Assembly: GCA_015055535.1 (NCBI GenBank)
Contig: SVIA01000002.1
Coordinates: forward strand, 16,314 to 80,313
Length of the DNA: 64,000 nucleotides
Direction of reading: 5' to 3'
Origin: Clostridiales bacterium
GTDB taxonomy: Bacteria > Bacillota > Clostridia > Christensenellales > UBA1242
The first letter of the stretch is position 1. The number at the start of each line of letters is the position of its first letter. Below, piece after piece: positions 10,669-58,328 of the stretch. Under the pieces are notes generated by a model that searched no databases, was not told the DNA's origin, and worked only from the letters and a program-made list of their open reading frames with translations. The position numbers were made by a program, and so were the translations under genes.

Positions 10669-12096
10669 ATGAATATAATTAATAAAATTAAATTACTTAA
10701 CTTAGAGATTAAAAGGCGTGAAGATAACAATATTTTAAAAAAATATAATACAGGAAAAGTTGTTCATGAAAAACAACTTTTATTTCATAAATCAATTAAA
10801 AAAAATCGTTGGGTTTTTGGTGGTAATCGAACAGGAAAAACTGAATGTGGAGCTGTTGAATGTATATATTTAGCAAGAGGAATTCATCCGTATAAAGAAA
10901 ATAAAAAAGATACTTCTGGTTGGGTTGTAAGCTTATCGACTCAAGTTCAAAGAGATGTTGCTCAAAGTAAAATTTTACATTATTTAAATCCTGATTGGAT
11001 AGAAGATATTGTTATGCTTAGCGGGAGAAAAGATAATTTAAAAAACGGTATTATAGACAAAATTTTAGTTAAAAATGTTTTCGGTGGAATAAGTACAATT
11101 GGTTTTAAAAGTTGTGACCAAGGTAGGGAAAAATTTCAAGGTACAAGCTTAGATTATGTTTGGTTTGATGAAGAACCACCTTATGATATTTATTTAGAAT
11201 GCAAAATGAGAGTTATTGATAAATGCGGAGAAATATTTGGAACAATGACACCACTTAAAGGGTTAACATGGGTATATAATAACATTTATTTAAATGAAAA
11301 TAATGATGATGAAGTTTGGCATATTACTTTAAGTTGGCAAGATAATCCTTTTTTAGATAAAAAAGAAATTGAAAGTTTAACAAAAATAATGAGCAAAGAT
11401 GAACTTGATAGTAGATGTTATGGTAATTTTAGCTTTTCGGGTGGACTTGTTTACTCTAACTTTAAAGAAGAATTTAATGTAATTGAACCATTTAATGTAC
11501 CAAGCGAGTGGTACGATAATATTAGTATTGATCCGGGCTTAAAAAACCCGTTATCGTGTCATTTTTATGCAATAGATTATGATGGAAATATTTATGTAAT
11601 TGCTGAACATTATGAAGCGGATAAAGATATTGAGTATCATGCTGAACATATTTTAAAAATTGCTGATAAATTAAACTGGCCAAGGAATTCTATGGGAAAA
11701 TTAAATGCTTTAATAGATAGTGCTGCTAATCAAAAAACTTTAGCTAGTAGCAAAAGTGTTGTAGATTTATTTTATGATTTTAATATTATCTGTAATGCAA
11801 AAGTTAACAAAGATTTATTTTCTGGCATTCAAAGAGTGAAAAATTTAATTTGTTCAGCTAGTGGAGAAAGAAAACTATTTATTTTTTCTACTTGTGTAAA
11901 TTTAATTAGAGAAATTAAAAGTTATTTTTGGGGAAAAGCAGATGTGCCCATTAAAAAAGATGACCATGCTTTAGACGAATTGAGATATTATGTTATGAAT
12001 AGACCCGAAAATAAAAAACCAATTATAAAAAATCAAATTCAAAAAGATAAAGAAAGATTATTTTTAAAAATTAAAAGAGATAGGTATGGAAGATAA
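10669..12096 (+). CDS. phage terminase large subunit
   Basis: Walker A is FGGNRTGKTECGA and Walker B is LDYVWFDEEP. The C-terminal nuclease-like half includes IDPG.., ..IDSAA.. and KDDHALDELRY. Position and size (475 aa) are typical for TerL. Confidence 0.85.
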   Translation: MNIINKIKLLNLEIKRREDNNILKKYNTGKVVHEKQLLFHKSIKKNRWVFGGNRTGKTECGAVECIYLARGIHPYKENKKDTSGWVVSLSTQVQRDVAQSKILHYLNPDWIEDIVMLSGRKDNLKNGIIDKILVKNVFGGISTIGFKSCDQGREKFQGTSLDYVWFDEEPPYDIYLECKMRVIDKCGEIFGTMTPLKGLTWVYNNIYLNENNDDEVWHITLSWQDNPFLDKKEIESLTKIMSKDELDSRCYGNFSFSGGLVYSNFKEEFNVIEPFNVPSEWYDNISIDPGLKNPLSCHFYAIDYDGNIYVIAEHYEADKDIEYHAEHILKIADKLNWPRNSMGKLNALIDSAANQKTLASSKSVVDLFYDFNIICNAKVNKDLFSGIQRVKNLICSASGERKLFIFSTCVNLIREIKSYFWGKADVPIKKDDHALDELRYYVMNRPENKKPIIKNQIQKDKERLFLKIKRDRYGR

Positions 12097-12589: not shown

Positions 12590-14479
12590 ATGAAAACAAA
12601 TAATAAACTTATTAAACAAGCAAAAGATAAATATAGAGAAAATTTAGTTAGGGAAACTATTGAAGATTTTAAACAAAGACAATTAGAAAGAAAGCCTATT
12701 GAAGCGGGTTGGATTTTAAATATGAACTTTTTATATGGAAATCAGTATTGTAATATATCTTCAATGGGTGATGTTGAAGATTATTCTAAACAATATTTTT
12801 GGCAAGAAAGAGAAGTGTATAACCATATTTCTCCAATAATAGAAACAAGAATTTCAAGGCTTAGTCAAATAAGACCTAAAATGAGTGTTGTTCCTAGCAC
12901 TAATAGTGAACAAGATATGAGTACAGCAAAGGTATCTAAAAATTTAATTAATGCAATATATCATAAATTAAATATAAGTGATAAAATTGTTAACTGTACT
13001 CATTTTAGTGAGGTTTGTGGAACTGGTTTTTATAAAGTTTATTGGGATAATAAAAAAGGCAAAAAATTAGCAAGTATTAATAATGATGAATATATTTATG
13101 AAGGTGATATTGCGGTAGATGTAGTATCACCTTTTGAAATATTTCCAGATAGTAATACACATGAAGATGTTGATGATTGTATGAGTATTATTCATGCAAA
13201 AAGTATGCATAAAGATGTTGTTAAACAAATTTGGGGAATAGAAGAACTTGGTGAAGATATTGATGTTTACAGCTTAGATAACATTTCAAATGCTGGTGGA
13301 CTTGGTTATAGTGCTACAACTAACAAAGTTATTTCTAGTGTTAAACATGACCAAGTTTTAGTAATTGAAAAATATGTAGCTCCAACGGTAGATTATCCTG
13401 ATGGACGACTTATTATTGTTGCTGGTAAAACTTTGGTTTATGATGGAAAACTTCCGTATGTAAATAGAGAAGATGGAAAAAGAGGTTTCCCTTTTATTAA
13501 ACAAGTTTCTTTAAAAACTCCAAATTCATTTTTTGGTAGTAGTATTATAGAAAGAATTATACCTGTTCAAAGAAGTTATAATGCGGTTAAAAATCGTAAG
13601 CACGAATATTTAAACCGTCTTTCAATGGGTATTTTAACTGTTGAGGATGGTTCTGTTGATTATGAAAATTTGGAAGAAGAAGGACTTTGCCCTGGTAAAG
13701 TTTTGGTATATAGACAAGGTAGTAATGCGCCAAAGATTATGGACAATGGAAGTATTCCTACAGAATTTAAAGAGGAAGAAGAAAAACTATTAAGTGAATT
13801 TAGTCAAATTAGTGGTATTAGCGATTTTATGTCTAATAATCAGATATCTATTAGCAATGCTTCTGGTGTAGCATTAGAGTTATTAATGGAGCAAGATACT
13901 AACAGATTAAACATTACAGCAGAGCAAATTAAATTTGCAATTAAAAGTATGGCCGCAAGTATTTTAAAACTTTATAAACAATTTACTACTTCTTCTAGAA
14001 TTGCTAAAGTTATTGGGAAAGATGGAAGTATTGAAATGTTTTATTTTCAAAAAAGTGATATTTCTAGTGATGATATTATTTTTGAAACAGAAAGTGAAAT
14101 TGGTGAAACAAAAGCGCAAAAACGAAGCTTGATTTTTGAACTTTTAAATGCAGGGCTTTTATATAATGAAGATGGTAAAATGTCTACTAGAATTAAAGCA
14201 AAAACTTTAGAAATGCTTGGTTTTGGAATGTGGGATACTCAGTATGATTTAGAAGAATTACACATGAAAAAAGCAGGAAAGGAACATTTGTCTTTAATAA
14301 ACACAAATAATATAGATAATGCTTTAGAAATTGATAATCATAATCTTCACATAGACGAACACGTTGCTTTTATGTTAAGTGAAGAATATAGTAAAGCTGT
14401 TAAATTGAATCCTGAAATTCAAGATAAAATTTTAAAACACATTAAAGAGCATAAAAATTTTTTAAAAAGTGAGGAATAA
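12590..14479 (+). CDS. phage portal protein
   Basis: A 629-aa ORF lies between the terminase and scaffold/capsid genes. AGGAG SD is present. The sequence has the general character of portal proteins (NMNFLYGNQY.. and an acidic C-terminus). Confidence 0.75.
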   Translation: MKTNNKLIKQAKDKYRENLVRETIEDFKQRQLERKPIEAGWILNMNFLYGNQYCNISSMGDVEDYSKQYFWQEREVYNHISPIIETRISRLSQIRPKMSVVPSTNSEQDMSTAKVSKNLINAIYHKLNISDKIVNCTHFSEVCGTGFYKVYWDNKKGKKLASINNDEYIYEGDIAVDVVSPFEIFPDSNTHEDVDDCMSIIHAKSMHKDVVKQIWGIEELGEDIDVYSLDNISNAGGLGYSATTNKVISSVKHDQVLVIEKYVAPTVDYPDGRLIIVAGKTLVYDGKLPYVNREDGKRGFPFIKQVSLKTPNSFFGSSIIERIIPVQRSYNAVKNRKHEYLNRLSMGILTVEDGSVDYENLEEEGLCPGKVLVYRQGSNAPKIMDNGSIPTEFKEEEEKLLSEFSQISGISDFMSNNQISISNASGVALELLMEQDTNRLNITAEQIKFAIKSMAASILKLYKQFTTSSRIAKVIGKDGSIEMFYFQKSDISSDDIIFETESEIGETKAQKRSLIFELLNAGLLYNEDGKMSTRIKAKTLEMLGFGMWDTQYDLEELHMKKAGKEHLSLINTNNIDNALEIDNHNLHIDEHVAFMLSEEYSKAVKLNPEIQDKILKHIKEHKNFLKSEE

Positions 14480-15130: not shown

Positions 15131-15139
15131 GGAGATATT

Positions 15140-16321: not shown

Positions 16322-16338
16322 TTATTTTTTGGAGAGTT

Positions 16339-16605
16339 ATGATTGAGATTTTTACTGATTTATTTGATATCGTTAAAAAAATAAAATATATTGATAATAA
16401 TTATCGTGTTTTTAGAAATATTACAAAACATAGATTTGAAATTTATTATCAAAATGGATTAAATCTTAATTTAGAATTAATATTGCCCTATAATAACCTA
16501 GATTATAGGGCTATTAATTTAATTAATAAAAGTCGAGTAGAAAATGCTGATGAGTTGTTTGATTACGTAGATAATTTTAACGACAAACTAGGATTGAAGG
16601 AGTAA
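16339..16605 (+). CDS. hypothetical phage protein
   Basis: GGAGAG SD. It is packed between the capsid gene and the next ORF. No motif was recognised. Confidence 0.5.
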   Translation: MIEIFTDLFDIVKKIKYIDNNYRVFRNITKHRFEIYYQNGLNLNLELILPYNNLDYRAINLINKSRVENADELFDYVDNFNDKLGLKE

Positions 16606-16606
16606 T

Positions 16607-18738: not shown

Positions 18739-18793
18739 AACATTAAAAAATAGTTTTAACCATTTGTTTTTTGTAAATAATGTGGAGGAAATT

Positions 18794-18979
18794 ATGAGTT
18801 ACAAAGAAGATTTAAATAAAATTTTGAATGCATTCAATTTTGCAAAAACACAAGAAATTAGTGCATTAAGTAAAGATGAATTATTAAAACTAAAAAATGA
18901 AGCACAATTAAATTTAGATATAGAAAAATTAAAACAAATTAATAAAGAATTAGATAGAAAAAGTTTTGACGAAGAATAA
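18794..18979 (+). CDS. small coiled-coil protein, hypothetical
   Basis: The ATG at 18794 follows a GGAGG SD. The upstream ATG at 18719 lacks one. Confidence 0.45.
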   Translation: MSYKEDLNKILNAFNFAKTQEISALSKDELLKLKNEAQLNLDIEKLKQINKELDRKSFDEE

Positions 18980-19007
18980 ATTTTTAAAAGTTTCAATAAT
19001 TAAAGAT

Positions 19008-19247
19008 ATGTGGGAAAAGATAGTTAATTTGGCTATTCAAAATGGACTATTTGCAGTTTTGTTTTTAGGACTTTTAGTATATATTTTAAAAGATAGTTCT
19101 AAAAGAGAAAAAAAATATCAACAAACTATTGAAAGTTTAAATCGAAGTTTAAACATTGTTGAAAATATTGAAGAAGATGTAAAAGAAATAAAACAAAATG
19201 TTAATAGTAAAATAACTAGAACAAAAAAGCAAATTAAACAAGGATAA
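19008..19247 (+). CDS. BhlA/UviB-family holin-like protein
   Basis: IQNGLFAVLFLGLLVYILKDSSKREKKYQQTIESLN closely parallels the BhlA core as I recall it (..QGPFAVLFCWLLFYVMKTSKERESKLYNQIDS..). It has a single TM followed by a coiled tail. Confidence 0.65.
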   Translation: MWEKIVNLAIQNGLFAVLFLGLLVYILKDSSKREKKYQQTIESLNRSLNIVENIEEDVKEIKQNVNSKITRTKKQIKQG

Positions 19248-28468: not shown

Positions 28469-29564
28469 AAAGAATAATAAAATTAATACTACTCAACTTT
28501 GCGTATTGCTTTTAGGTGTTTTTTTATCTATGAGACCAATTTTAGAAAATGCATTACAAGCTGAAGTTTTAGATAATGATTGTATTATTACAACATTTTT
28601 TGCCGGAATTATAAATTTATGTTTAACAATGCTAGTTTGTTATGTAATATATAAAAACCCAAATAAAAGTTTTTATGATATTATTAAAAACTTTCTAGGA
28701 ACAACAATTACAAAAATTATTATGTTTTTGTTAGCCATTATATTTTTATTCAAATTAATTATTGTAGATTATCAAATGGCTGATTTATTATACGATGCAA
28801 TATATTCAGATATAAACTGGATTTATTTTGTTGTTCCAATTTATTTAACATTTTTATTTTTAGCATTAAAAAACATAAAAACTATTGCAAGATGTTATCA
28901 GTTTTTTATACCTTTTGCAGTAGTTATATTTATAGCGGCATTACTTATTAGTACTGCAAATGCCAATTTTGAAAATTTACTTCCATTTTTTGATCATAAT
29001 TATTCAAGCTTTATAGAAGGATTTAGTTATATTTTAATTCAGTCGGGCGAGTTTATTTTCTTATTTACATTTATGGAAAATATAATTAGTAAAGATAAAC
29101 ACTATTTTAAAAAGATTTCAATAACACTTATAATAATTTTTATTTTAGTTATGTGTTTTTATATTCTTTTTATTGCCGTTTTAGGAAAACTTGCTCCTTA
29201 TGTTCAAGAAAGTATTATTAAAATGACACAATTAGATCACTATACTTATGGTTATTTTAAAATTGATATTTTTATTTCTGTTATGTATATTCCTATAATA
29301 ATTTTACAATGTGCTCTTTGTGTATATTCAGCCAGTTATTCTTTAAATAAATCAATTAAATTAAATAAAAAAATTTCTAGTTTTTTAATAATTTTAGCAT
29401 TATTTTTAACTAAATTTATTCCAGGATTAAACAATAAGGTAATTATAGATTTTTTTTATAAAACAATTGGGATTTATGTTATTATTTTTGTTTTATTTCT
29501 GCCTATAATTTTAATTATTGCGAGCAACAAAAAGGAGAAAAATTATGAAAAAATTTCTCGCTAA
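28461..29564 (+). CDS. spore germination protein, GerAB-type permease subunit
   Basis: A 367-aa protein with about 10 TM helices that overlaps the A subunit stop. This is the typical operon position. Confidence 0.7.
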   Translation: MTKKNNKINTTQLCVLLLGVFLSMRPILENALQAEVLDNDCIITTFFAGIINLCLTMLVCYVIYKNPNKSFYDIIKNFLGTTITKIIMFLLAIIFLFKLIIVDYQMADLLYDAIYSDINWIYFVVPIYLTFLFLALKNIKTIARCYQFFIPFAVVIFIAALLISTANANFENLLPFFDHNYSSFIEGFSYILIQSGEFIFLFTFMENIISKDKHYFKKISITLIIIFILVMCFYILFIAVLGKLAPYVQESIIKMTQLDHYTYGYFKIDIFISVMYIPIIILQCALCVYSASYSLNKSIKLNKKISSFLIILALFLTKFIPGLNNKVIIDFFYKTIGIYVIIFVLFLPIILIIASNKKEKNYEKISR

Positions 29565-30816
29565 TTATAGCTATCCAATTATTTTTGTTTTTATACTTTT
29601 ATTGTTACTTCCGTCAACTATAGGAAAACCTGCGTTAACAAATACGAGAGCTATTATAACGGGAATGAGTATAGATAAAATAGAAAATGAATATAGTATT
29701 GCACTTCAATTAATAACTCCACAAAGTAATATAAGCAATAATGAAGATTTAGAGATTGTCGATGATAAAGGTGAAACAATATTTGAATGTTTTAATAATT
29801 TAAGCATAAAACTGGGAAAGGTTGTGGGTCTAGAACATGCTAATATTATAATTTTAAGTGATAGTTTACAAAATGAAGATATAATGAATTTGTTTGATTA
29901 TTTGTATAGAAATACTAAAATTACACTATCTACTATTTTAATTCAAACCGATAAAAGTGCACAAAGCTTATTAGAAGCTTCTGCAGAACTTAATAACAAT
30001 TCGAGCAGTAGTTTGCAAAATAATTTGGGTTTTAGTAACAAAATAATAGAATCATCAAAAGCTACAACCTTAGGTGATTTTTATAATGATTATTTTTCTT
30101 TTTCTAAAATTTCAACCTTGCCGTTTATTAAAACATCTAGCAACGAAGCTAATTCTTCTACTTCAGAATCTTCTTCTGGAAAAAATAGTAGTTCTACGTC
30201 TACAGATGGGGCTTCAAGTTCATCTCAACAAAATTCAAGCGGCGACACCAAAAGTCCAGTTCAACCACTTGTACAAAACAATGGAGAAATTTCTATATAC
30301 AAAGAAGGACGGCTTGTAGATAGATTTACAAAAGATATTTCAGTTGGGCTTGGATGGCTTCAAGAAGATGCTACTATTGGTGTAATAAAAGTTGAAAATG
30401 TTACCGATAATAAATATTTTGATAATTCAACAGTGGTTGTTCAAATTGAGCATTCTAAGACTAAAGTTAAATCGAAAATAAAAGATAATAAATTGATTTA
30501 TGATATAAATATTAATATATATTGTATAGTTTCTGAAGTAATAGATACTTTTCAAAACAATAAAATTTTACAAAATTCACAGAATTATTTAAATTATGAA
30601 TTAAAAGAAAAAATTAAAGATAAGGTTATTAATGATATTAATGCAACGCTTTTAGTAAGTAAAGAAAAAAAATTGGACGTTTTTAAAATATTTGATACTT
30701 TTTATAAATATCACAAAAATGAGTTTAAAATTTTTTTATCGAAAATAGATAATTCAGAAAATTATTTAGAATATGTAGAATTTAATATAAATCCTAATAT
30801 ATATGCTTATAAATAG
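29545..30816 (+). CDS. spore germination protein, Ger(x)C-type subunit (no lipobox Cys seen)
   Basis: The ATG at 29545 follows an AGGAG SD. TRAIITGMSIDK... matches the usual start of GerAC mature regions. It is the third gene of the operon. It carries a Ser-rich insert (SSTSESSSGKNSSSTSTDGASSSSQQNSS). Confidence 0.65.
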   Translation: MKKFLANYSYPIIFVFILLLLLPSTIGKPALTNTRAIITGMSIDKIENEYSIALQLITPQSNISNNEDLEIVDDKGETIFECFNNLSIKLGKVVGLEHANIIILSDSLQNEDIMNLFDYLYRNTKITLSTILIQTDKSAQSLLEASAELNNNSSSSLQNNLGFSNKIIESSKATTLGDFYNDYFSFSKISTLPFIKTSSNEANSSTSESSSGKNSSSTSTDGASSSSQQNSSGDTKSPVQPLVQNNGEISIYKEGRLVDRFTKDISVGLGWLQEDATIGVIKVENVTDNKYFDNSTVVVQIEHSKTKVKSKIKDNKLIYDININIYCIVSEVIDTFQNNKILQNSQNYLNYELKEKIKDKVINDINATLLVSKEKKLDVFKIFDTFYKYHKNEFKIFLSKIDNSENYLEYVEFNINPNIYAYK

Positions 30817-49899: not shown

Positions 49900-52800
49900 A
49901 TGAAAAAAGAAAATGCAAGTTTAAACTTTGTCGAACTAGAACATAATGTTTTAGATAAATGGAAAAATATGAATTTATTCCATAAAATAGTCGACAAAAA
50001 TAAAAATAGTGAAAAAAGATTTAGATTTTTAGATGGACCAATGACTGCAAACAATCGTGCTGGCGTTCATCATTTTTGGGGTAGAATTTTAAAAGATATT
50101 ATTATTAAGTATCATTCTATGAAAGGTGAAAGTCAACAATTTCAAAATGGCTTTGACGCACAAGGCATGTGGGTAGAAGTTAATGTTGAAAAAGCCTTGG
50201 GCTTAAATGGTAAACCTGAAATTATAGACTATGGAATGGATAAATTCACAGAAAAGTGTATTGAAAGAGTAAATCACTTTGCTGGTGAAATTACAGAGCA
50301 AAGTAAACGTATGGGTCAAATTATGGATTGGGATGATTCGTATTTTACTAATAGTGACGAAAACATTACTTCAATTTGGCACTTTTTAAAAGTTTGTAGT
50401 GAAAAAGGTTGGCTTGTTAAGAAAAATCGTCCAATGGTATGGTGCCCTCGTTGTGGAACAAGTATCAGTGAACATGAGCTTTCAGGTTCTTACTCTGATG
50501 TTACTCATACTGCAATATTTTTTAAATTACCAGTTAAAAATCAAGACTTTAAAATGGTTGGTTGGACAACAACTCCTTGGACACTTTGTGCTAACGTAGC
50601 TTTAGCTGTTAACCCTGAACTTACTTATGTTAAAGTTTTATTTGAAGGCGAAAAATTGGTTCTTGGTAAAGATAGCTTAAAAGTTTTAAAAGGAAGCAAT
50701 GTTGAAATTTTAGAAGAATTTACAGGAGACAAATTAGTAGGTTTAGAGTACGAAACTTGTTTTCCTGAACTTGAAATGCAAAACTTTGTTCACAAAATTT
50801 ATCCTTGGGATCAAGTTGAGGCAGGTGAAGGTGCTTGTGTAGTACACATTGCCCCTGGTTGTGGTGCAGAAGACTTTGAACTAGGAAAAGAATACAATCT
50901 TCCTGAAATTTGCCCAATAAATGAACAAGGAGTTATGTTAGATGATTGTGGTTTTATTGCTGGAAAGAAAACTACAGATGTTGTAGAAGATGTTGTTAAT
51001 AGATTAAAACAAGATAACAAACTTCTTTACGCGCATAAATACAAACATAGCTATCCTCATTGTTGGCGTTGTAAAACAGATTTAGTTTATAAACTAATTT
51101 CAACTTGGTATATTAAAATGGATGAGGTTCGTCCACAACTTTTAAAAGCAATTGATGAAGTTGAGTTTCAACCAGCTTATGCTAAAAAACGTATGGAAGA
51201 CTGGTTAAATAATATGGGCGACTGGAATATTTCTCGTTCTCGTTTCTATGGACTTCCTCTTCCTATTTATACTTGTGAAAAATGCGGTAAAGTTCATGTA
51301 GTTGGAAGTTTAGAAGAACTTAAAAAATTAGCTGTTAATCCTGAAAAAGTAGATAATATTCCTCATCTTCATAGACCATATATTGATGAAATTCAAATTA
51401 AATGTGATTGTGGAGAAGTGTTAAATAGAATTCCAGAAGTTGGTGACTGCTGGTTAGATGCTGGTATTACTCCATTTAGCACTAAAAAATATTTTACAGA
51501 CAGAGAATATTTTAACAATAATTTCCCAAGCGATGTAGTTTGTGAAATGATTGAACAAATAAAACTATGGTTCTATAGTTTGTTAGTTATGAGCGTTGTT
51601 TTAACTGGTAAAGCACCTTACAAAAAAATTGTAACATATCAATATGTGCGTGACGAAAATGGTGATGAATTCCATAAAAGTGGCGGAAATAGTTTAGATG
51701 CTGACCATGTTGCTGATGAAGTTGGCGCAGAAGCTATAAGATATTTATATGCAAGTGCAAATCCTGTTAACGATATGCGTTTTGGATATAATTTATTAGA
51801 CGATGTTAAAAAACAATTACTAGCTTTTTGGAATATTTATGTATTCTTTAATACTTATGCTGTAATCGATAATCCAAAATTAGATGAAATTATTGAGAAA
51901 CTAGAAAATAACTCATTAGATTTAACCAACTTTACAATAACTGATAAATGGTTGTTAGAGACAATTGTTAATTTTACAAATAAAGCAAATAGTTATTATT
52001 CTGAAGATAAAGCGTATAATGTTGTTAAAGATTTTGAAAAATTAATAGATGATATTTCTAATTTCTACATTAGAAGTAATCGTAAAAGATTTTGGGATAG
52101 CGATATAAATGCTTATACTTGCTTATATTTTGCTATTAAAAATATAATTAAAGTTATGGCTCCAATAATTCCATTTATTACCGAACATATTTGGGAAAAT
52201 TTAGTATTAGAACTTGAAAAAGAAGAAGTTTCTAGTGTACATTTATGCAATTTCCCAGAATTAAAATCTTTTGGATTTAATGATTTGGTTGAAGATATAG
52301 AAAAATCTAGAGAAATAATATATCTAGCTCAAAAATTAAGAAACGAAAATAAAATTAAAGTTAAACAACCATTATCAAACATGTTTTTAAAAGTGAGTGA
52401 TGATTATAAAAAGGCTGTTATTAACTTAACAGATATAATTAAAGAAGAATTAAACATTAAAAACATTGAATTTGTTGATGCTGATGATAAATTTAACACA
52501 AAACAATTAAACTTAAACTTTAAAGTAGCAGGTAAAGTGCTTGGTGGTGAATTAAATAAATATCTAAACGTATTAAAAAGTTCTAGTGAAGCTGAAATGA
52601 ATGAATACGTAAAAGAGTTTGAAACAAAGGGTACTGTAACATTAAATGGTTTACAAACTCAAAACGGAGAATTATTTATTTTAAAATATTTGCCAAAACC
52701 AGAATTTGCAATATCAATTGAAAATAATAATATTGTTGCCTTAGATATAACGCTTACTAATGAGTTAATTAGCGAAGGGCATTATAGAGAAATTGTTCGT

Positions 52801-53025
52801 CAAATTCAAGTTGCTAGAAAAGAAGCAGATTTTAAAATTGAAGATAGAATTATTTTAGATTTGACAAGTCAAGATGAAAAGATGCAACAAACTATAGATA
52901 AATTTATGTCTAAAATAATGCTTGAAACTTTAGCTGTTGAAAATAAAACACTTGATAATGCAGAGTATAAAACTACATTTAAAGTTAATGAAAAAGATAT
53001 AGTTTTAAAACTAAAAAGAGTATAA
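49900..53025 (+). CDS. ileS: isoleucine--tRNA ligase (divergent signature motifs)
   Basis: WTTTPWTLCANVALAVNP is the IleRS-type TTTPWT editing motif. CWRCKTDLVYKLISTWYI and WNISRSRFYGLPLP are present. The HIGH position reads GVHH and the KMSKS position reads FHKSGGN. GAGAGGA SD lies 15 nt after the valS stop. Confidence 0.7.
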   Translation: MKKENASLNFVELEHNVLDKWKNMNLFHKIVDKNKNSEKRFRFLDGPMTANNRAGVHHFWGRILKDIIIKYHSMKGESQQFQNGFDAQGMWVEVNVEKALGLNGKPEIIDYGMDKFTEKCIERVNHFAGEITEQSKRMGQIMDWDDSYFTNSDENITSIWHFLKVCSEKGWLVKKNRPMVWCPRCGTSISEHELSGSYSDVTHTAIFFKLPVKNQDFKMVGWTTTPWTLCANVALAVNPELTYVKVLFEGEKLVLGKDSLKVLKGSNVEILEEFTGDKLVGLEYETCFPELEMQNFVHKIYPWDQVEAGEGACVVHIAPGCGAEDFELGKEYNLPEICPINEQGVMLDDCGFIAGKKTTDVVEDVVNRLKQDNKLLYAHKYKHSYPHCWRCKTDLVYKLISTWYIKMDEVRPQLLKAIDEVEFQPAYAKKRMEDWLNNMGDWNISRSRFYGLPLPIYTCEKCGKVHVVGSLEELKKLAVNPEKVDNIPHLHRPYIDEIQIKCDCGEVLNRIPEVGDCWLDAGITPFSTKKYFTDREYFNNNFPSDVVCEMIEQIKLWFYSLLVMSVVLTGKAPYKKIVTYQYVRDENGDEFHKSGGNSLDADHVADEVGAEAIRYLYASANPVNDMRFGYNLLDDVKKQLLAFWNIYVFFNTYAVIDNPKLDEIIEKLENNSLDLTNFTITDKWLLETIVNFTNKANSYYSEDKAYNVVKDFEKLIDDISNFYIRSNRKRFWDSDINAYTCLYFAIKNIIKVMAPIIPFITEHIWENLVLELEKEEVSSVHLCNFPELKSFGFNDLVEDIEKSREIIYLAQKLRNENKIKVKQPLSNMFLKVSDDYKKAVINLTDIIKEELNIKNIEFVDADDKFNTKQLNLNFKVAGKVLGGELNKYLNVLKSSSEAEMNEYVKEFETKGTVTLNGLQTQNGELFILKYLPKPEFAISIENNNIVALDITLTNELISEGHYREIVRQIQVARKEADFKIEDRIILDLTSQDEKMQQTIDKFMSKIMLETLAVENKTLDNAEYKTTFKVNEKDIVLKLKRV

Positions 53026-53030
53026 ATAAG

Positions 53031-53058
53031 AGTTTCACTTTATAGTGAAACTTTTTTA
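53031..53058 (+). terminator. rho-independent terminator after ileS
   Basis: AGTTTCACT-TTAT-AGTGAAACT followed by a T-run. Confidence 0.7.
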
Positions 53059-53192
53059 TTTTTAATCTAATAGTTAATATTTATTTAAATAATTGATCTA
53101 AATTTTAAATTATATATTAATATATAAAAATTAAAATTCACTATTGACAATAATGAAAAAATATAATAAAATATTTTTAATTAGGAGAGATT

Positions 53193-54323
53193 ATGAAAAA
53201 TAGAAAACTATCACTTGTTGAAAGCCCAAATATCGAAAAATTAAGAGTAGATAATAAAAAATATGAAATGATTTTACAATCAGCTGAAAAAATTGCGAAA
53301 GATACTTCTTTTGACCCTGAAGTTTTATCTTATGTTGAATTAGATGAAGAAAATTTTACTCACTTATGTTTGGTTAATTTTGCCGATATTCACTTCTTTG
53401 ATCAAGGCATGCAAAAGAAAAGATTCGATTTAGCAAGTGATTTTTTAAAAAACACATCTAATGCTTATGGTGTTTTATCTGGAGATACTTTTACAGTTAG
53501 TACTTTAAGCGGAGCCTCAAATGCTCATGTTAATAAAATTAATAATACAAATTCAGCTATTCTTGGTAAACAATGTTTAAGTAAAATTAGCGATAAAATA
53601 TTGTTTGGTGTTGGTGGTAACCACGATGGCGAACATGGTTCAAGAAATCGTGATTCTAACATTAGTTTAACAAGAAATGTATTAGACAGCATTAATGTTT
53701 CTTATTTTCAATATAACGTTTTATTAAAAATGAATTTTAATGATTGTCCATTTTACGTTTTTGTTACTCATGGTTGTGGTAAAGCCAATTCTAAAGCATC
53801 TGCTCTAGATGTAATGAAGGCAAAATGTTCTAGTATTTTTAGCCGTTTTGGAATTTATCCTAATTTAGTTTTATCAGGTCATTTTCATGCTGATGTTAAT
53901 GGAAGATATATTGTACAAGTTCCTGTATATAAAAATGGTCAATTAGTTGCAACTAAAAATCAGGAATTAATAATTGAAAGTGCACCAGCTCTTCAAGGAG
54001 ATAGTGAATTTACAACTGCTTATAATATGGATATGACTAAGCCAAATGTAAATGCTTTTGATATTAGTTTTAAAAAGAATCCTTATTTTAATACAAAAAC
54101 AAAATTAACAGAAAGTCCTATTATTTGGACAATTAATAAATTTCCGCTACTTAGACATGGAAAAGATGAATTATCTACTCCAGCTAAAATTTATATGGAA
54201 AAGTATAAAGAACCAATAGAATTAAAAGGTCAAATTGATAAACTTATTAATGAAACTGGCTTAAATCTTGATGGTTTAAAACAAAGCATTCAAAAACTTG
54301 GTGAGGAGGTAAAAGAATTTTAA
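53193..54323 (+). CDS. calcineurin-like metallophosphoesterase with all five motifs intact
   Basis: The motifs are FADIHF (DxH), LSGDTF (GD), GGNHDG (GNHD), VTHGCG (H) and SGHFHAD (GHxH). AGGAGAG SD is present. Confidence 0.7.
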   Translation: MKNRKLSLVESPNIEKLRVDNKKYEMILQSAEKIAKDTSFDPEVLSYVELDEENFTHLCLVNFADIHFFDQGMQKKRFDLASDFLKNTSNAYGVLSGDTFTVSTLSGASNAHVNKINNTNSAILGKQCLSKISDKILFGVGGNHDGEHGSRNRDSNISLTRNVLDSINVSYFQYNVLLKMNFNDCPFYVFVTHGCGKANSKASALDVMKAKCSSIFSRFGIYPNLVLSGHFHADVNGRYIVQVPVYKNGQLVATKNQELIIESAPALQGDSEFTTAYNMDMTKPNVNAFDISFKKNPYFNTKTKLTESPIIWTINKFPLLRHGKDELSTPAKIYMEKYKEPIELKGQIDKLINETGLNLDGLKQSIQKLGEEVKEF

Positions 54324-55501
54324 TGGAACAATATGGAAAGAAAGGACCTTACACTAATGCTGTAAAAAATAATTATATTTTAGAAAAATTCTATGAAGAA
54401 AATTTCCAAAAGAAAGACGCAAGCATTCTAGAAAGCTTTAAAGTTAGTAAAGTAAATTTAGCAACAAATGAAGTTGTTGAGGGTTTAGAAACTCCACTTG
54501 TAGAAGATTATGTTCAAGAAGTTTTAAGTCGTAAAATAAGTGTAGTGTCTGATAATGTTGTTGAAATAGCAAAAAATCAAGAATGTTTAAATTTAATATT
54601 TTATTGTTCAGCCAATTACTTTGATATGAGTAATCCTCAAAAAGGTATTTGTAGTGGTAAAAATGAAGAAATTATAGCTAATTTATCAAGTGTTAATCCA
54701 AATGGAAAAACTGTTGTTGTATTTGGTGGAGATTTACTTGGCGAAGAGTGGCAAATAAAATATTTAAAAAATGCAAGAATAGAAAATAATAAAGCATTAT
54801 ATTTTGGATTAAATAAAAGAAAAAATCGACTAATTAGAGATATTAAAAAATTCTTTTCTTTTAGTGAAAAACTTGGTCTTGATATTGATATCTATTTAAT
54901 GAGGGGACATCAAGAACACTTTATTATTAAAGAATTAAACCGTGATATTTTTGAAGAAGTTGTATTAGAACTTCAAGATAAATATGTTAGTAATGGAAAA
55001 ACTAAATTGCATTATTTAAGTAGTGGTGTAAGTTTAGCGTTAAATGTTGTTAAGAAAAACAAAAATAAACCAGCTTATAGTGCTACAATAGGACTTCAAA
55101 CCAATATGAAAAACAAAACATTAACTGCAAGAGGCGAAGCGTCTGCAAGTTATAGTTATAATGGAAGTTTGCCTTCTAATGTTTGTTTTGTATGTAATGG
55201 TAATTTTGCAGGTAAGCTTGGTGATAGAACTTATCATGTTTCAGGTCAATCACAATTTATTAGAACTCCAAAAGGCAAAAAACCACAATTAGCTCCAAAA
55301 GGGTATAATGTATTTACTGTATATGTAGAAAATGATAATGAATTAACAGTTCAAGAGGGTGGCGCTAATATTTTTCCAAAAGGTTTAGAACTTCAAAATG
55401 AAGAATATAAAGAAAATAAGAAACAAGAAATTTTATTGGAAACTTGCGAAAAATTAATAAAAGATCAATTAAAAGAAATTAAACTTTCTAAGGAAAATTA
55501 A
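54323..55501 (+). CDS. degenerate metallophosphoesterase-like paralogue (metal ligands lost)
   Basis: The motifs occur in the same order but are eroded. CSANYFD replaces DxH, FGGDLLG retains GD, RGHQEHF replaces GNHD/E, and CNGNFAG replaces GHxH. The ATG overlaps the upstream TAA (TAATG). Confidence 0.5.
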   Translation: MEQYGKKGPYTNAVKNNYILEKFYEENFQKKDASILESFKVSKVNLATNEVVEGLETPLVEDYVQEVLSRKISVVSDNVVEIAKNQECLNLIFYCSANYFDMSNPQKGICSGKNEEIIANLSSVNPNGKTVVVFGGDLLGEEWQIKYLKNARIENNKALYFGLNKRKNRLIRDIKKFFSFSEKLGLDIDIYLMRGHQEHFIIKELNRDIFEEVVLELQDKYVSNGKTKLHYLSSGVSLALNVVKKNKNKPAYSATIGLQTNMKNKTLTARGEASASYSYNGSLPSNVCFVCNGNFAGKLGDRTYHVSGQSQFIRTPKGKKPQLAPKGYNVFTVYVENDNELTVQEGGANIFPKGLELQNEEYKENKKQEILLETCEKLIKDQLKEIKLSKEN

Positions 55502-55511
55502 GGAGAATATT

Positions 55512-55736
55512 ATGGAAAATAAAACTTGTAAAATTTGTAATAGTTTAGTAGTGGAAGATTTTGAATTTTGCCCTTATTGTGGTGCACCTATCACTAAAAA
55601 AGCACAACAGCTTGAAAATACAAAAACTGTTAACTCTCAACTTGTTTTGCTTGCTAGTTTAATTAGGAATATCGAAGATACAAAAAGTTTATATGTTATA
55701 GATAAATTTATTAAAAAATTAAGCAAAACTAAATAA
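55512..55736 (+). CDS. small zinc-ribbon protein
   Basis: CKICNS...CPYCGAPI at the N-terminus. AAGGAG SD. It is the last gene before the terminator. Confidence 0.55.
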   Translation: MENKTCKICNSLVVEDFEFCPYCGAPITKKAQQLENTKTVNSQLVLLASLIRNIEDTKSLYVIDKFIKKLSKTK

Positions 55737-55750
55737 TATTATTAAAATTA

Positions 55751-55788
55751 AAAGACATTTTATGATTATTTAAAATGTCTTTTTTATT
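55751..55788 (+). terminator. rho-independent terminator of the three-gene operon
   Basis: AAAGACATTTTA / TAAAATGTCTTT 12-bp arms followed by a T-run. Confidence 0.7.
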
Positions 55789-55809
55789 TTTATAAACTGT
55801 TTAAAAAAG

Positions 55810-55838
55810 TTTACATTGTTTCTAAAATGTTATATAAT
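55810..55838 (+). promoter_or_regulatory. sigma-A promoter for the XRE/RSH operon
   Basis: TTTACA (55810-15), 17 nt spacer, TATAAT (55833-38). This places the transcription start after the listed TTG at 55816, so the ATG at 55858 is the real start. Confidence 0.55.
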
Positions 55839-55857
55839 GTTACAAAAAGGATGTGTT

Positions 55858-56859
55858 ATGGAAAATTATTTTAGTTACAATTTGCAAAATTTATTAAAGA
55901 AAAACAATATTTCTCAAAGAGCGTTAGCGGAAGAATTACGTATTTCAAATACTGCTATTAGTAGATATATTAAGGGGGAAAATGAACCTAGTGTAAGTTT
56001 ACTTTTAGCATTAAAAGAAAATTACAATATAAATATAGATGAATTTTTAACAAAAAAAATAGAAATTTCTGACGTTCAAAACAAAAGTGCTACTATATTG
56101 TTTAACGATAATTATGACCAAAAATTTATTGGTAATTTTTTAATTTATTATTATAATACTGGTTTTTATAAGGGTAAAGTTGATAGTCTTGCTTATAATA
56201 CTTTAAAATATGGAGTTTTAAGCATTTATAAAAATAGTAGTAAAAATAAAGCAGTGGCAGCAATGCTTTTATTTAAAAGTAGAACAGATGCTGAAAATTA
56301 CAAATTAAAACTAGATAAAATGTCTGGTTGTGAAATTGAAGAAGAAATTAAACAAAATGAAGATTATTATACTGGAACAATTGAATTTAATTTTACGCAA
56401 ATTTTTATAAGTATATCTAATGAGAAACATAATGATAAAGGTTTAATTATATTAAATAATCCTCCTACAGATAAAAAATATATTGGTGGTCTTGGAACAA
56501 TAAATTCTGTATCTCGGGCACGTGAACTTATGCCTTGTGTACAATTTGTTATTTTATCTAAATATATTTTAAATAAGAGTGAAGGTGAATTATACAGTTT
56601 ACTTAGCTTGTCAGTGTCAGATATAAACGTTAAAAGCGAAACTGAAAAATTAATTAATTTGTTTAAAAATTTATATGTGTATACAGAAAATAACGAAGAT
56701 ATGTTTTTAGAAGAATATCAAAAAGTAAAAATTGTTGAAAACTGTTTAGAAAACTTAATGAAAGAATTAATTGACGCAAATGTGTTTAGGTATGCAAAAA
56801 TTTCTAATAGTGAAGATGACGATTTTTATAGATTAATTAAGGAAGAAAAAATAAAATAA
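55858..56859 (+). CDS. XRE-family HTH protein with a ~260-aa C-terminal domain of unknown function
   Basis: LLKKNNISQRALAEELRISNTAISRYIKGENEPS is a Cro/C1-type HTH. No motif was recognised in the remainder. Confidence 0.65.
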   Translation: MENYFSYNLQNLLKKNNISQRALAEELRISNTAISRYIKGENEPSVSLLLALKENYNINIDEFLTKKIEISDVQNKSATILFNDNYDQKFIGNFLIYYYNTGFYKGKVDSLAYNTLKYGVLSIYKNSSKNKAVAAMLLFKSRTDAENYKLKLDKMSGCEIEEEIKQNEDYYTGTIEFNFTQIFISISNEKHNDKGLIILNNPPTDKKYIGGLGTINSVSRARELMPCVQFVILSKYILNKSEGELYSLLSLSVSDINVKSETEKLINLFKNLYVYTENNEDMFLEEYQKVKIVENCLENLMKELIDANVFRYAKISNSEDDDFYRLIKEEKIK

Positions 56860-56888
56860 TTAAAAATTATTTAAATTAAGGAGTTTTT

Positions 56889-58328
56889 ATGGTAGAAAGT
56901 CTTTATAAAGATTTAATATCTAATTTAGAGCAAAAACATTTATTAAATATTGATTTAGTAATTAAAGCTTACAACATAGCTTCTTCTTTGCATAAAGAAC
57001 AAAAAAGAAAAGATGGAACTCCTTATATTATGCATCCAGTAAGCGTTGCTAAAATTTTAGAAGAGTTAGATTTTAACGCAGATATTATTGCGAGTGCACT
57101 TTTACATGATGTTGTTGAAGATTGTGGCTATACATTAGAAGAGATAAAACAAAATTTAAATGCAAATGTTGCTCAAATTGTTGATGCAGTTACAGCTATA
57201 GAAAACTTAGACAATAGTAAAGAGTTTGCTAAACTAGATGCAGAAAATAAGACATATCAAAAATTACTTTCAATAGGAAAAGATAATAGGTTTGCATTTT
57301 TTATAAAATTTGCAGATAGATTAAATAATTTAAAAACAATTTCATGTTTTCCTAAATATAAACAAATAGAAAAAGTTAAAGAAACTGAAAATTGGTTAAT
57401 ACCTATTTTAAAAATTTTCAAAGCAACCTATTTATTTAATGCAATTAGAAATGAATGTTTTTTAATAAAAAATTCCAATATAATTTCTAAATTTTTATTT
57501 AGATATGATAAATATAATCGATTAAACGAAAACAACTTTAATTTTGTTAAAAGTTATTTAAGTGACAATTTAAATCACTTTATATTTAAGAAAAAATACA
57601 ATTTAAATTTAAAAAAAGCCGTAATGGAAAATGTTTTACCTGTAGAAACTTATGAAAATTTAATAAAGTCTCATACTATAGAAAAACTAACATATTTTAG
57701 AACACATCAATTTAATGCAACAACATTTAAAAAGATATTTATTTTATTTGATGAAGATGATAAGAAAAAAGAAATCAATAATATGTTTTTTGATTTTATT
57801 TCTCAGCCGCAAGTTGAAAAAAATATTAATTTAATAGGTTATTCACACGACCCTAATTTTAATCATAGTTATTTTATTTTAGTTGATAATTGCAAAAATA
57901 AATATGAAGTTTATTTGTTTACCGAAAAAGAATATATTGAATATAAAAATGGTTCAATTGAAGGTGCTGAAATAGAACATATTGAAGATGACACAACAAA
58001 ACCCAATGAAAATTTTATAAAAGTTTTTACTAAAAGTGGTGAAGAAATTTATTTGCCAGAAGGATCAACGGTTTTAGATTTTGCTTTTAAAATTCATAAC
58101 GATTTGGGATTTTCATGTTTACATGCACATTTAAACGAAAGTCCTTCTAAAACACCAATTTATGCTAAACTTACTCAAAACGATAAAGTAAATTTAGTAT
58201 TAAAATTAGATGATGAAACTGGTCATAAACAAAACATAGCACAAATTCGTTGGCTTACTTATGTAAACACGGAAAATGCGAAAAAAAATTTGGCGAAATA
58301 TTTTGAAAATAAATATGAAAACTTATAA
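56889..58328 (+). CDS. RelA/SpoT homologue with HD hydrolase and TGS domains and a degenerate synthetase domain, truncated after TGS
   Basis: HD motifs are RKDGTPYIMHPVSVA, LLHDVVEDCG and IKFADRLNNL. The TGS domain is IKVFTKSGEEIYLPEGSTVLDFAFKIHNDLG. The central region lacks the G-R-x-K-H, D-x-x-A-x-R and EVQIRT synthetase motifs (VLPVETYENL, IFILFDEDD and YEVYLFTEKE stand in their places). TAAGGAG SD is present. Confidence 0.7.
   Translation: MVESLYKDLISNLEQKHLLNIDLVIKAYNIASSLHKEQKRKDGTPYIMHPVSVAKILEELDFNADIIASALLHDVVEDCGYTLEEIKQNLNANVAQIVDAVTAIENLDNSKEFAKLDAENKTYQKLLSIGKDNRFAFFIKFADRLNNLKTISCFPKYKQIEKVKETENWLIPILKIFKATYLFNAIRNECFLIKNSNIISKFLFRYDKYNRLNENNFNFVKSYLSDNLNHFIFKKKYNLNLKKAVMENVLPVETYENLIKSHTIEKLTYFRTHQFNATTFKKIFILFDEDDKKKEINNMFFDFISQPQVEKNINLIGYSHDPNFNHSYFILVDNCKNKYEVYLFTEKEYIEYKNGSIEGAEIEHIEDDTTKPNENFIKVFTKSGEEIYLPEGSTVLDFAFKIHNDLGFSCLHAHLNESPSKTPIYAKLTQNDKVNLVLKLDDETGHKQNIAQIRWLTYVNTENAKKNLAKYFENKYENL

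What the first reader, a model, noticed from the sequence alone, without database searches (positions are those of the whole stretch)
53144..55788. Uncharacterised operon: intact metallophosphoesterase, degenerate paralogue and zinc ribbon
The operon has three translationally coupled genes (a TAATG overlap at 54321-54325, then a 10-nt gap with AAGGAG) and ends at a 12-bp-stem terminator.

Gene 1 has all five calcineurin-like motifs (DIH, GD, GNHD, H, GHFH) with Mre11/SbcD-like compact spacing.

Gene 2 has the same motif order, but the metal ligands are replaced (ANY, GD retained, GHQEH, GNFA). This suggests a catalytically dead partner subunit.

Gene 3 is a CxxC..CxxC ribbon.

I see no SbcC-like ATPase. 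I do not recognise this active/inactive MPE heterodimer plus Zn-ribbon arrangement as any described bacterial system. Active/dead MPE pairs are known from eukaryotic and archaeal polymerase B-subunits.

The operon sits among other accessory-looking genes (the XRE/RSH pair and the TasA-like pair). A nucleic-acid or nucleotide-second-messenger processing role, possibly in defence, is worth testing.
Basis: partly seen in the sequence, partly recalled or inferred. Interest (0 to 1): 0.65.

Follow-up and report, generated by a model that had tools for sequence, protein, structure and literature searches.

The report
Conserved metallophosphoesterase trio of unknown function
A tightly coupled three-gene operon (an intact metallophosphoesterase, a second protein with the same fold but no histidine metal ligands, and a small zinc-ribbon protein) is real, is kept as a unit in a narrow group of uncultured low-GC gut Clostridia, matches no described system and has no known function.

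Summary
Three translationally coupled genes (53193-55736, + strand) lie between a strong sigma-70-type promoter and a hairpin followed by a T run.

- **Gene 1** is an intact metallophosphoesterase (MPE). Every catalytic motif residue is invariant or nearly so across the family.
- **Gene 2** matches no sequence family. Its AlphaFold model matches viral MPE-fold models (best E 2.7e-7). The histidine ligands are gone, but a different polar set sits in the same loops (D101, N104, E198, N261, N294). Gene 2 is more conserved than gene 1.
- **Gene 3** is a CxxC...CxxC zinc ribbon followed by a helix.

All three genes were found together wherever the flanks allowed, in at least nine deep lineages of gut MAGs (Christensenellales and related Clostridia). 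Gaps between the genes are -38 to +12 nt. One contig encodes a gene 1-gene 2 fusion.

The family is very rare: 37 cluster representatives among 1.84 billion. I found it in no phage, plasmid or PADLOC model.

Neighbours differ between lineages. The annotated ones are mostly housekeeping (tRNA synthetases, rRNA/rpoBC, the rnpA/mnmG/parAB region). The defence idea is therefore not supported.

My best reading is inferred, not shown: a cytoplasmic heterotrimeric phosphodiesterase of the nuclease type, built as an MPE pseudo-dimer with a zinc-ribbon subunit. The substrate is unknown.

The parts
53144..53172 (+). Sigma-70-type promoter, TTGACA-17 nt-TAAAAT
   Evidence: Best-scoring promoter-like site in 52900-56000 (11 of 12 positions). 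It lies 20 nt upstream of the gene 1 ATG, after the IleRS terminator at 53028-53055.
53183..53188 (+). Shine-Dalgarno sequence (AGGAGA) of gene 1
   Evidence: Read directly from the sequence.
53193..54323 (+). Gene 1: intact metallophosphoesterase, 376 aa. It has an MPE core, a C-terminal beta-rich domain and terminal helices.
   Evidence: Of the motif residues D65, H67, G97, D98, N143, H144, H193, H230 and H232, H67 is kept in 19 of 20 diverse relatives and the rest in all 20. It matches phrog_7339 at E 2.6e-11, and all 27 family members match. The AF2 model has pLDDT 78. Foldseek against PDB finds YydB, PolD DP1, LpxH, Mre11 and Rv0805 at E 1e-6 to 1e-4. The Pfam Metallophos match is below threshold.
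54303..54309 (+). Shine-Dalgarno sequence (GAGGAGG) of gene 2, inside the end of gene 1
   Evidence: Read directly from the sequence. The ATG at 54323 overlaps the TAA at 54321-54323.
54323..55501 (+). Gene 2: MPE-fold protein without the canonical histidine ligands, 392 aa, founding a new sequence family
   Evidence: No hit in Pfam, NCBIfam, PHROGs, PADLOC or PDB sequences. The AF2 model has pLDDT 76. Foldseek against BFVD gives 18 hits at E<=1e-3, and every named one is a calcineurin-like phosphoesterase or an MPE-type nuclease/polymerase subunit (best 2.7e-7). Against PDB the top two hits are MPEs but weak. Conserved residues include D101, N104, G140, E142, W143, R166, G195, E198, N261 and N294.
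55500..55505 (+). Shine-Dalgarno sequence (AAGGAG) of gene 3, overlapping the gene 2 stop
   Evidence: Read directly from the sequence.
55512..55736 (+). Gene 3: zinc-ribbon protein, 74 aa. A CxxC-x10-CxxCG-P ribbon is followed by a conserved helical C-terminal half.
   Evidence: Weak zinc-ribbon Pfam hits (E 3e-4 to 6e-4, below cut-off). A 58-81 aa orthologue with the same Cys pattern and an N..L..L helix follows gene 2 in every lineage with sequence there.
55750..55790 (+). Intrinsic-terminator-like hairpin: 13-bp stem, 8-nt loop, then a T run
   Evidence: RNA fold -15 kcal/mol, z = -4.2. The next promoter-like site, at 55810-55838, starts the XRE gene.

Best explanation
The operon encodes three soluble cytoplasmic proteins that work together as one complex.

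- **Gene 1** supplies a canonical two-metal phosphodiesterase active site.
- **Gene 2** is a second MPE-fold subunit. It cannot bind metals in the canonical way but keeps a conserved polar pocket. It probably pairs with gene 1 as a pseudo-dimer, in place of the homodimer that Mre11/SbcD-type nucleases form, and contributes substrate binding or regulation.
- **Gene 3** is a zinc ribbon plus helix. It probably latches onto the complex, perhaps through the long C-terminal helices of genes 1 and 2, or contacts the substrate.

The most likely substrate class is nucleic acid, DNA or RNA ends. That would make this a lineage-specific housekeeping nuclease or end-processing enzyme, not a defence system.

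**Shown:** gene structure, coupling, conservation as a unit, the intact site in gene 1, the MPE fold of gene 2 with lost histidines, the zinc ribbon, the housekeeping context and the rarity.

**Inferred:** physical complex formation, the pseudo-dimer geometry and a nucleic-acid substrate.
For: **The three proteins act together**
- The trio is colinear in every locus where the flanks allow, covering at least nine deep lineages at 22-69% mutual identity. Gaps are -38 to +12 nt.
- Pairwise identities of genes 1 and 2 correlate at r = 0.93.
- One contig (P0107, 837 aa) encodes a gene 1-gene 2 fusion in the same order.

**Gene 1 is active and gene 2 is an altered MPE**
- The gene 1 catalytic residues are invariant or nearly so.
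- Gene 2 has the MPE fold with no histidine ligands but a conserved D/N/E set at the motif loops.
- Gene 2 is more conserved than gene 1 in 87% of lineage pairs.

**Lean towards nucleic acid**
- All 27 gene 1 relatives hit phrog_7339, annotated 'DNA repair exonuclease' (best 1e-28).
- Structural neighbours of gene 1 include PolD DP1 (TMq 0.43-0.45) and Mre11.
- Named matches of gene 2 include viral 'DNA polymerase II small subunit' and SbcCD-type models.
- Motifs II and III in the family read GDxF(D/T) and GNHD.

**Soluble and housekeeping**
- The three proteins are soluble and mildly basic, with no transmembrane segment.
- A sigma-70-type promoter drives the operon.
- Where neighbours could be annotated they are mostly housekeeping.
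Against:
- The fusion rests on a single 2.6-kb contig at about 3x coverage.
- The phrog_7339 label is an annotation by similarity, not an assay.
- Foldseek also finds LpxH, Rv0805 and COG0622-type phosphodiesterases at similar E-values. The fold therefore does not choose a substrate.
- TM-scores are modest (0.3-0.45).
- No neighbour recurs across lineages to point to a pathway.
- The conserved pocket of gene 2 could mean it is itself an enzyme.
Confidence: 0.5

Rival explanations
1. It is a small-molecule phosphodiesterase or pyrophosphatase. Gene 1 would hydrolyse cyclic or linear nucleotides, dinucleoside polyphosphates or alarmone-type signals. Gene 2 would act as a ligand-sensing pseudo-enzyme subunit, and gene 3 as an adaptor.
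For: Gene 1 also resembles Rv0805 (a class III cyclic-nucleotide phosphodiesterase), LpxH and COG0622 enzymes at E 4e-5 to 2e-4. The best gene 2 matches are 'ApaH-type' viral MPE models. Gene 2 keeps a conserved polar pocket that could bind a nucleotide. In the window an HD+TGS (RSH-like) gene lies 1.1 kb downstream.
Against: The RSH-like and XRE genes are neighbours only in this window, not in the other lineages. The only significant sequence-family link is to a phage family annotated as an exonuclease. A three-subunit architecture is unusual for small-molecule phosphodiesterases (general knowledge).
Confidence: 0.2
2. It is an anti-phage defence or conflict system. Gene 1 would be a nuclease effector, and genes 2 and 3 would be sensor or regulator subunits.
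For: MPE nucleases occur as effectors in some defence systems (general knowledge). The best PDB fold match of gene 1 is B. subtilis YydB, modelled with YydD. Gene 1 relatives occur in phages. The window carries a phage-like terminase/portal cluster about 35 kb away.
Against: No PADLOC model matches gene 1 or gene 2. The family is confined to one narrow group of gut Clostridia and diverges deeply with its hosts, unlike the patchy spread typical of defence genes. Annotated neighbours are tRNA synthetases, rRNA/rpoBC and the rnpA/mnmG/parAB region. No copies were found on plasmids, in phages or in IMG/VR. No integrase or mobile-element gene lies beside it.
Confidence: 0.07
3. Gene 2 is not a dead subunit but an enzyme with a different chemistry. 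Its conserved Asp/Asn/Glu site would be active, and the operon would encode two sequential activities on one substrate.
For: D101, E198 and G195 are invariant. N104, N261, N294 and R166 are kept in at least 26 of 28 diverse sequences, at the loops where MPE active-site residues sit. Gene 2 evolves more slowly than gene 1.
Against: None of the canonical histidine ligands survives. H199 is kept in only 18 of 28 and D137 is D or N. No known MPE works without them (general knowledge). Conservation could equally reflect substrate binding or the interface with gene 1.
Confidence: 0.15
4. It is a PPP-like protein phosphatase holoenzyme, with a catalytic subunit plus regulatory subunits.
For: PP5 and calcineurin appear among the lower Foldseek hits of gene 1 (E 4e-4 to 2e-3).
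Against: Gene 1 lacks the PPP signatures GDxHG, GDxVDRG and GNHE. It has D-I-H-F, GDTF and GNHD. The PPP hits have the lowest TM-scores (0.23-0.29).
Confidence: 0.04

Closest known systems
Mre11/SbcD nucleases (with Rad50/SbcC)
   Same: Gene 1 has the MPE core with GDxF(D/T) and GNHD motifs. It also has an extra beta-rich domain after motif V and C-terminal helices, and its length is about that of SbcD. Foldseek hits Mre11 at E 1.4e-4 to 1e-2 over about 350 columns. Mre11 works as a dimer of MPE domains, and a gene 1-gene 2 pair could mimic this.
   Different: No ABC ATPase or coiled-coil partner is present in any locus. The second MPE-fold subunit lacks the histidine ligands. A separate zinc-ribbon protein replaces any zinc hook. 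There is no sequence-level membership.
Archaeal PolD small subunit DP1 and eukaryotic polymerase B-subunits
   Same: These give the highest TM-scores for gene 1 (0.41-0.45). Several gene 2 matches are viral models named 'DNA polymerase II small subunit'. In those polymerases an MPE-fold subunit docks onto a zinc-finger-plus-helix module of the catalytic subunit (established knowledge). That echoes the MPE plus zinc-ribbon pairing here.
   Different: There is no large polymerase subunit and no OB-fold domain; only about 55 residues precede the MPE core. Gene 3 is a free 74-aa protein and does not hit polymerase zinc-finger families. The resemblance is a lead, not a test.
phrog_7339 phage metallophosphoesterases, annotated 'DNA repair exonuclease'
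   Same: This is the only significant sequence-family match of gene 1 (E 2.6e-11, and 27 of 27 relatives).
   Different: The phage members examined are stand-alone genes of 257-343 aa, for example Bacillus phage Stahl gp29 and Caudoviricetes vir520_00004. They have no gene 2-like or zinc-ribbon partner. Their activity has not been assayed as far as the records show.
B. subtilis YydB (PDB 9a6c, integrative model with YydD)
   Same: It is the best Foldseek E-value for gene 1 (1.5e-6).
   Different: TMq is only 0.32. YydB is 481 aa and is paired with YydD, which has no counterpart here. Its function is unknown.
Catalytically inactive MPE-fold proteins (Vps29, polymerase B-subunits)
   Same: Gene 2, like these, keeps the fold and has lost the canonical metal ligands.
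   Different: In gene 2 the vestigial site is the most conserved part of the protein, and gene 2 is encoded next to an active MPE in one operon.

Membership tests
Metallophosphoesterase (calcineurin-like) superfamily - gene 1 | Five motifs: DxH, GD, GNH(D/E), H, GHxH | tested here: met
   D65-x-H67, G97-D98, G142-N-H-D145, H193 and G229-H-F-H232. In 20 diverse relatives H67 is kept in 19 of 20 and the other ligand residues in all 20.
Metallophosphoesterase (calcineurin-like) superfamily - gene 1 | Pfam PF00149 score above the curated cut-off | tested here: not met
   13.6 bits against a 21.5-bit cut-off. 23 of 27 relatives match at E<=0.1, best 5.9e-5.
Metallophosphoesterase (calcineurin-like) superfamily - gene 1 | MPE fold | tested here: met
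   AF2 model with pLDDT 78. There are 23 PDB matches at E<=1e-3, all MPE-fold proteins.
Metallophosphoesterase superfamily - gene 2 | MPE fold | tested here: met
   Against BFVD there are 18 matches at E<=1e-3, and every named one is a calcineurin-like phosphoesterase or an MPE-type nuclease/polymerase subunit (best 2.7e-7). Against PDB only weak matches were found (5'-nucleotidase at 5e-3, AQ665 at 9e-2). This rests on a predicted model with pLDDT 76.
Metallophosphoesterase superfamily - gene 2 | Canonical metal-ligand motifs | tested here: not met
   There is no DxH. GD is kept as D/N137. G-x-Q-E198-(H) stands in place of GNHD. N261 replaces the motif IV His, and N292-G-N294 replaces GHxH.
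Metallophosphoesterase superfamily - gene 2 | Sequence-profile similarity to MPEs or to gene 1 | tested here: not met
   No Pfam, PHROG, NCBIfam or PDB hit. hhalign against the gene 1 family gives probability 0.1-1.3%.
SbcCD / Mre11-Rad50 | Adjacent SMC-like ABC ATPase with coiled coil and zinc hook | tested here: not met
   None in the window near the operon, and none in any of the loci examined.
PolD (DP1/DP2) or polymerase B-subunit modules | Partner large catalytic subunit, and an OB-fold domain N-terminal to the MPE domain | tested here: not met
   No large polymerase gene in the operon in any lineage. Only about 55 residues precede the MPE core in the model.
Known anti-phage defence systems (PADLOC-DB v2) | Match to a defence-protein model | tested here: not met
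   No hit for gene 1 or gene 2. Gene 3 gives only a trivial zinc-ribbon overlap with PtuB (E 5e-3).
Known anti-phage defence systems (PADLOC-DB v2) | Defence-island or mobile-element context | tested here: not met
   Annotated neighbours are mostly housekeeping, and no integrase or phage gene lies next to the trio.
phrog_7339 | HMM match | tested here: met
   E 2.6e-11 for the window protein, and 27 of 27 relatives match (best 1e-28). The match covers only the MPE core (residues 48-234).
Zinc ribbon - gene 3 | Two CxxC knuckles about 10 residues apart | tested here: met
   C6/C9 and C20/C23, conserved in every lineage with sequence downstream of gene 2. Pfam zinc-ribbon scores are below the cut-offs (22.2 against 28.9 bits).

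The most novel reading that the evidence does not exclude
The trio is a previously unknown, vertically inherited nucleic-acid machine of a reduced-genome gut Clostridia lineage. It would be an obligate MPE pseudo-dimer (one catalytic subunit, one ligand-binding subunit) clamped by a zinc-ribbon subunit. Functionally it would replace a Mre11/SbcD-Rad50-type or DP1-type exonuclease module without any ATPase or polymerase partner. That would be a bacterial counterpart of the MPE plus zinc-finger docking seen in archaeal and eukaryotic replicative polymerases.
Probability: 0.12. Interest if true: 0.8.

Novelty: new variant of a known kind. Interest (0 to 1): 0.5.

Why it matters
- Active/inactive enzyme pairs are a recurring route to regulation. 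I could not find an operon-encoded active MPE, ligand-less MPE and zinc-ribbon trio described in bacteria.
- Gene 2 founds a sequence family with no Pfam, NCBIfam or PHROG model.
- The operon is retained across deep lineages of small-genome, uncultured gut Clostridia. It is therefore probably important to them and could mark a lineage-specific solution to a common nucleic-acid task.
- It is also a compact, soluble three-protein system that can be expressed and assayed directly.

Tried and rejected
- **Sequence searches of PDB.** Single sequences and profiles of both large proteins found nothing usable.
- **Paralogy test.** Profile-profile comparison of the gene 1 and gene 2 families was run twice, the second time with broader alignments. 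It was not significant and the register was inconsistent. I therefore do not call gene 2 a paralogue.
- **Phage origin.**
  - The window proteins gave no tblastn match in GenBank phages.
  - IMG/VR scans with the gene 2 profile, the fusion protein and a distant member all found nothing. One scan with too diverse an alignment failed.
  - Only an outlying gene 1 relative (P0086) matches stand-alone phage MPEs.
- **Plasmids.** No match.
- **Defence.** No PADLOC match.
- **Recurrent neighbours.**
  - None was found.
  - tRNA-synthetase genes lie next to the trio in three lineages (IleRS, AspRS, HisRS). That may be a remnant of old synteny or a weak RNA-related lead, and I did not build on it.
- **Regulatory RNA.** Rfam finds nothing in or near the operon.
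- **Literature.** Searches for an MPE/zinc-ribbon/inactive-paralogue system and for YydB/YydD returned nothing relevant.
- **L032 upstream gene.** I tested whether it is gene 2-like. It is a different, intact MPE.
Full report
**1. What is in the sequence**

The region holds three ORFs on the + strand:
- gene 1, 53193..54323, 376 aa
- gene 2, 54323..55501, 392 aa
- gene 3, 55512..55736, 74 aa

The gene 2 ATG overlaps the gene 1 TAA (TAATG at 54321-54325), and GAGGAGG lies 13 nt upstream. Gene 3 starts 10 nt after the gene 2 stop, behind AAGGAG.

The strongest promoter-like site in 52900-56000 is TTGACA-17-TAAAAT at 53144-53172. It follows a terminator that closes the upstream IleRS gene, at 53028-53055.

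After gene 3 a 13-bp hairpin (55750-55783) runs into a T tract. Its free energy is -15 kcal/mol, with z = -4.2 against shuffles. A second promoter-like site at 55810-55838 starts the next gene, which encodes an XRE-type HTH protein.

**2. The three proteins**

*Gene 1.*
- It carries all five MPE motifs. In 20 sequences from diverse lineages H67 is kept in 19 of 20. D65, G97, D98, N143, H144, H193, H230 and H232 are kept in all 20, as are R151, Q268 and N285.
- Pfam Metallophos matches only below threshold (13.6 against 21.5 bits).
- PHROG 7339, annotated 'DNA repair exonuclease', matches at 2.6e-11. It matches all 27 relatives tested, best 1e-28.
- The AlphaFold2 model has pLDDT 78 and pTM 0.80.
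- Against PDB the model finds only MPE-fold proteins at E<=1e-3:
  - B. subtilis YydB (1.5e-6);
  - PolD DP1, with the best TM-scores (0.41-0.45);
  - LpxH, a COG0622 protein, Mre11, Rv0805 and the Pol delta B-subunit.

*Gene 2.*
- It matches nothing in Pfam, NCBIfam, PHROGs, PADLOC or PDB sequences, whether searched alone or as a family.
- Its model has pLDDT 76.
- Against PDB only weak hits appear, but the top two are MPEs.
- Against BFVD there are 18 hits at E<=1e-3. Every named one is a calcineurin-like phosphoesterase or an MPE-type nuclease/polymerase subunit, with the best at 2.7e-7 and probability 1.0.
- The order of strands and helices in the model matches the beta-alpha-beta layout of MPEs. 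The conserved residues follow the strands where the MPE motifs would sit.
- None of the canonical histidines is present.
- Across 28 diverse sequences the family instead conserves:

| Residue | Conservation |
|---|---|
| D101 | 28 of 28 |
| N104 | 27 of 28 |
| D/N137 | D in 19, N in 8 |
| G140 | 28 of 28 |
| E142 and W143 | 25 of 28 each |
| R166 | 27 of 28 |
| G195 | 28 of 28 |
| E198 | 28 of 28 |
| N261 | 26 of 28 |
| N294 | 27 of 28 |

- Profile-profile comparison with the gene 1 family is not significant. A shared fold is therefore supported, but paralogy is not shown.

*Gene 3.* It has a CxxC-x10-CxxCG-P ribbon followed by a conserved helical half.

None of the three proteins has a hydrophobic segment, and their pI values are 8.1-9.0.

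**3. Conservation and distribution**

The family is very rare:
- Gene 1 has 21-30 relatives and gene 2 has 56 among 5.8 billion clustered proteins.
- An exhaustive profile search with gene 2 finds only 37 representatives among 1.84 billion.
- Sixteen of 185,579 GTDB species carry it. All are gut MAGs named Christensenellales, Catabacter, Clostridia or 'Bacilli bacterium'.
- Seven loci were found in 241 million metagenome records.
- Where named, the proteins are 'hypothetical'.

Gene order is strictly conserved:
- The order gene 1, gene 2, gene 3 holds in every fetched locus whose flanks allow it.
- Across ten representative loci the gaps are -38 to +12 nt.
- Those loci fall into at least nine lineages at 22-69% mutual identity.
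- Pairwise identities of genes 1 and 2 correlate at r = 0.93.
- Gene 2 is the more conserved of the two in 87% of pairs, with means of 35.9% against 29.9%.
- One protein (P0107, 837 aa) is a gene 1-gene 2 fusion in the same order. It rests on a single 2.6-kb contig at about 3x coverage.

**4. Context**

The window has about 25% GC with uniformly positive GC skew. Almost all long ORFs are on the + strand. Genes around the operon are RNase J, HisRS, DinB, two class I tRNA synthetases and BipA.

Elsewhere the trio lies in these settings:
- after PolA and AspRS, and before an SLT-domain gene and SecA;
- between 23S-5S rRNA and rpoB-rpoC;
- between rnpA-yidD-yidC-jag-mnmE and mnmG-rsmG-parA-parB, with dnaA nearby;
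- before HisRS;
- among genes without annotation.

No neighbour recurs across lineages. None is an integrase, a phage gene or a known defence gene. The window proteins have no tblastn match in phage or plasmid records, and the IMG/VR scans found no family member. The phage members of phrog_7339 that I examined are stand-alone genes.

**5. Interpretation**

*Shown:*
- The trio is a real, ancient, co-inherited and translationally coupled unit.
- It comprises one intact MPE, one MPE-fold protein with an altered but conserved site, and one zinc-ribbon protein.
- Its annotated neighbours are mostly housekeeping.

*Inferred:*
- The three proteins form one complex. This rests on the coupling, co-evolution and the single fusion.
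- Genes 1 and 2 pair as a pseudo-dimer, by analogy with dimeric Mre11/SbcD.
- The substrate is nucleic acid. This rests on the only sequence-family link, to phage 'exonuclease' MPEs. It also rests on DP1/Mre11-type structural neighbours and on the GDxF(D/T) and GNHD motif forms.

I put about 0.5 on this reading as a whole. Within it, I hold 'heteromeric complex with one canonical catalytic site' with much more confidence than 'nuclease'.

A small-molecule phosphodiesterase role is the main rival (0.2). Defence is unlikely (0.07).

Because gene 2 is the slower-evolving partner and has a conserved pocket, calling it a 'dead subunit' understates it. It probably binds substrate or a regulatory ligand, and an unorthodox catalytic role cannot be excluded (0.15, not exclusive of the other readings).

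**6. Comparison with known systems, and novelty**

- It works most like an Mre11/SbcD- or DP1-type MPE nuclease. It is not a member of either system, because it has no ABC ATPase, no polymerase subunit and no OB domain.
- It is not in PADLOC.
- The closest sequence family is the stand-alone phage MPE family phrog_7339.
- I found no description of this trio in Pfam, NCBIfam, PHROGs, PADLOC, PDB or three literature searches.
- I rate it a new variant of a known kind: the MPE superfamily in a new three-subunit architecture, with a new gene 2 sequence family.
- Interest is moderate (0.5). The architecture and conservation are striking. Against that, the clade is narrow and uncultured, and the function is only inferred.

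Noticed in passing
window 9311-19247 (for example 10669..12096 and 12590..14479): A phage-like cluster with a large terminase (Terminase_6N, 2.7e-13) and a P22-like portal (1.1e-25). It could be a prophage remnant or a gene-transfer-agent-like element in an otherwise housekeeping stretch.
   Followed up: no
window 26933-30816: A GerA-family spore-germination protein (E 3.6e-145), followed by two overlapping ORFs that are probably the other germinant-receptor subunits. The organism is likely a spore former despite 25% GC and an apparently small genome.
   Followed up: no
window 55816-58328: An XRE-type HTH protein with a roughly 270-aa C-terminal domain of unknown family. It is followed by a 479-aa HD_4 + TGS protein with no RelA/SpoT synthetase-domain hit (RSH-like, perhaps hydrolase only). 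The pair has its own promoter-like site at 55810-55838 and is not linked to the trio in other lineages.
   Followed up: partly
   Followed up: no
window 497-5230: An AddA-like UvrD-helicase + PD-(D/E)XK protein of 852 aa, short for AddA. It is followed by a 708-aa ORF without a Pfam hit, possibly a divergent AddB.
   Followed up: no
L026 34-2547 (protein P0107): A single 837-aa ORF fuses a gene 1-like MPE (motifs DEH, GGD, GNHD, H, EHLH) to a gene 2-like domain through a low-complexity linker. It is seen on one 2.6-kb contig at about 3x coverage only.
   Followed up: partly
L032 59-4227: A phage-like contig with two different intact MPE genes, 376 aa each. Each has an N-terminal extension preceding the MPE core. 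A 98-aa ORF separates them, and a SNF2-like helicase follows. One of the two (P0086) is the outlying relative that links gene 1 to phrog_7339 phage genes.
   Followed up: partly
L001 11104-13182 and L019 9704-12031: Very large BspA-type LRR_5 / Flg_new surface proteins (one of 5731 aa) lie near the trio in two lineages.
   Followed up: no
window 49900-53025; L001 2919-4658; L021 9820-11169: tRNA-synthetase genes (IleRS, AspRS, HisRS) lie immediately next to the trio in three separate lineages. This is more often than I would roughly expect by chance. It could be a remnant of old synteny or a weak hint of an RNA-related role.
   Followed up: partly
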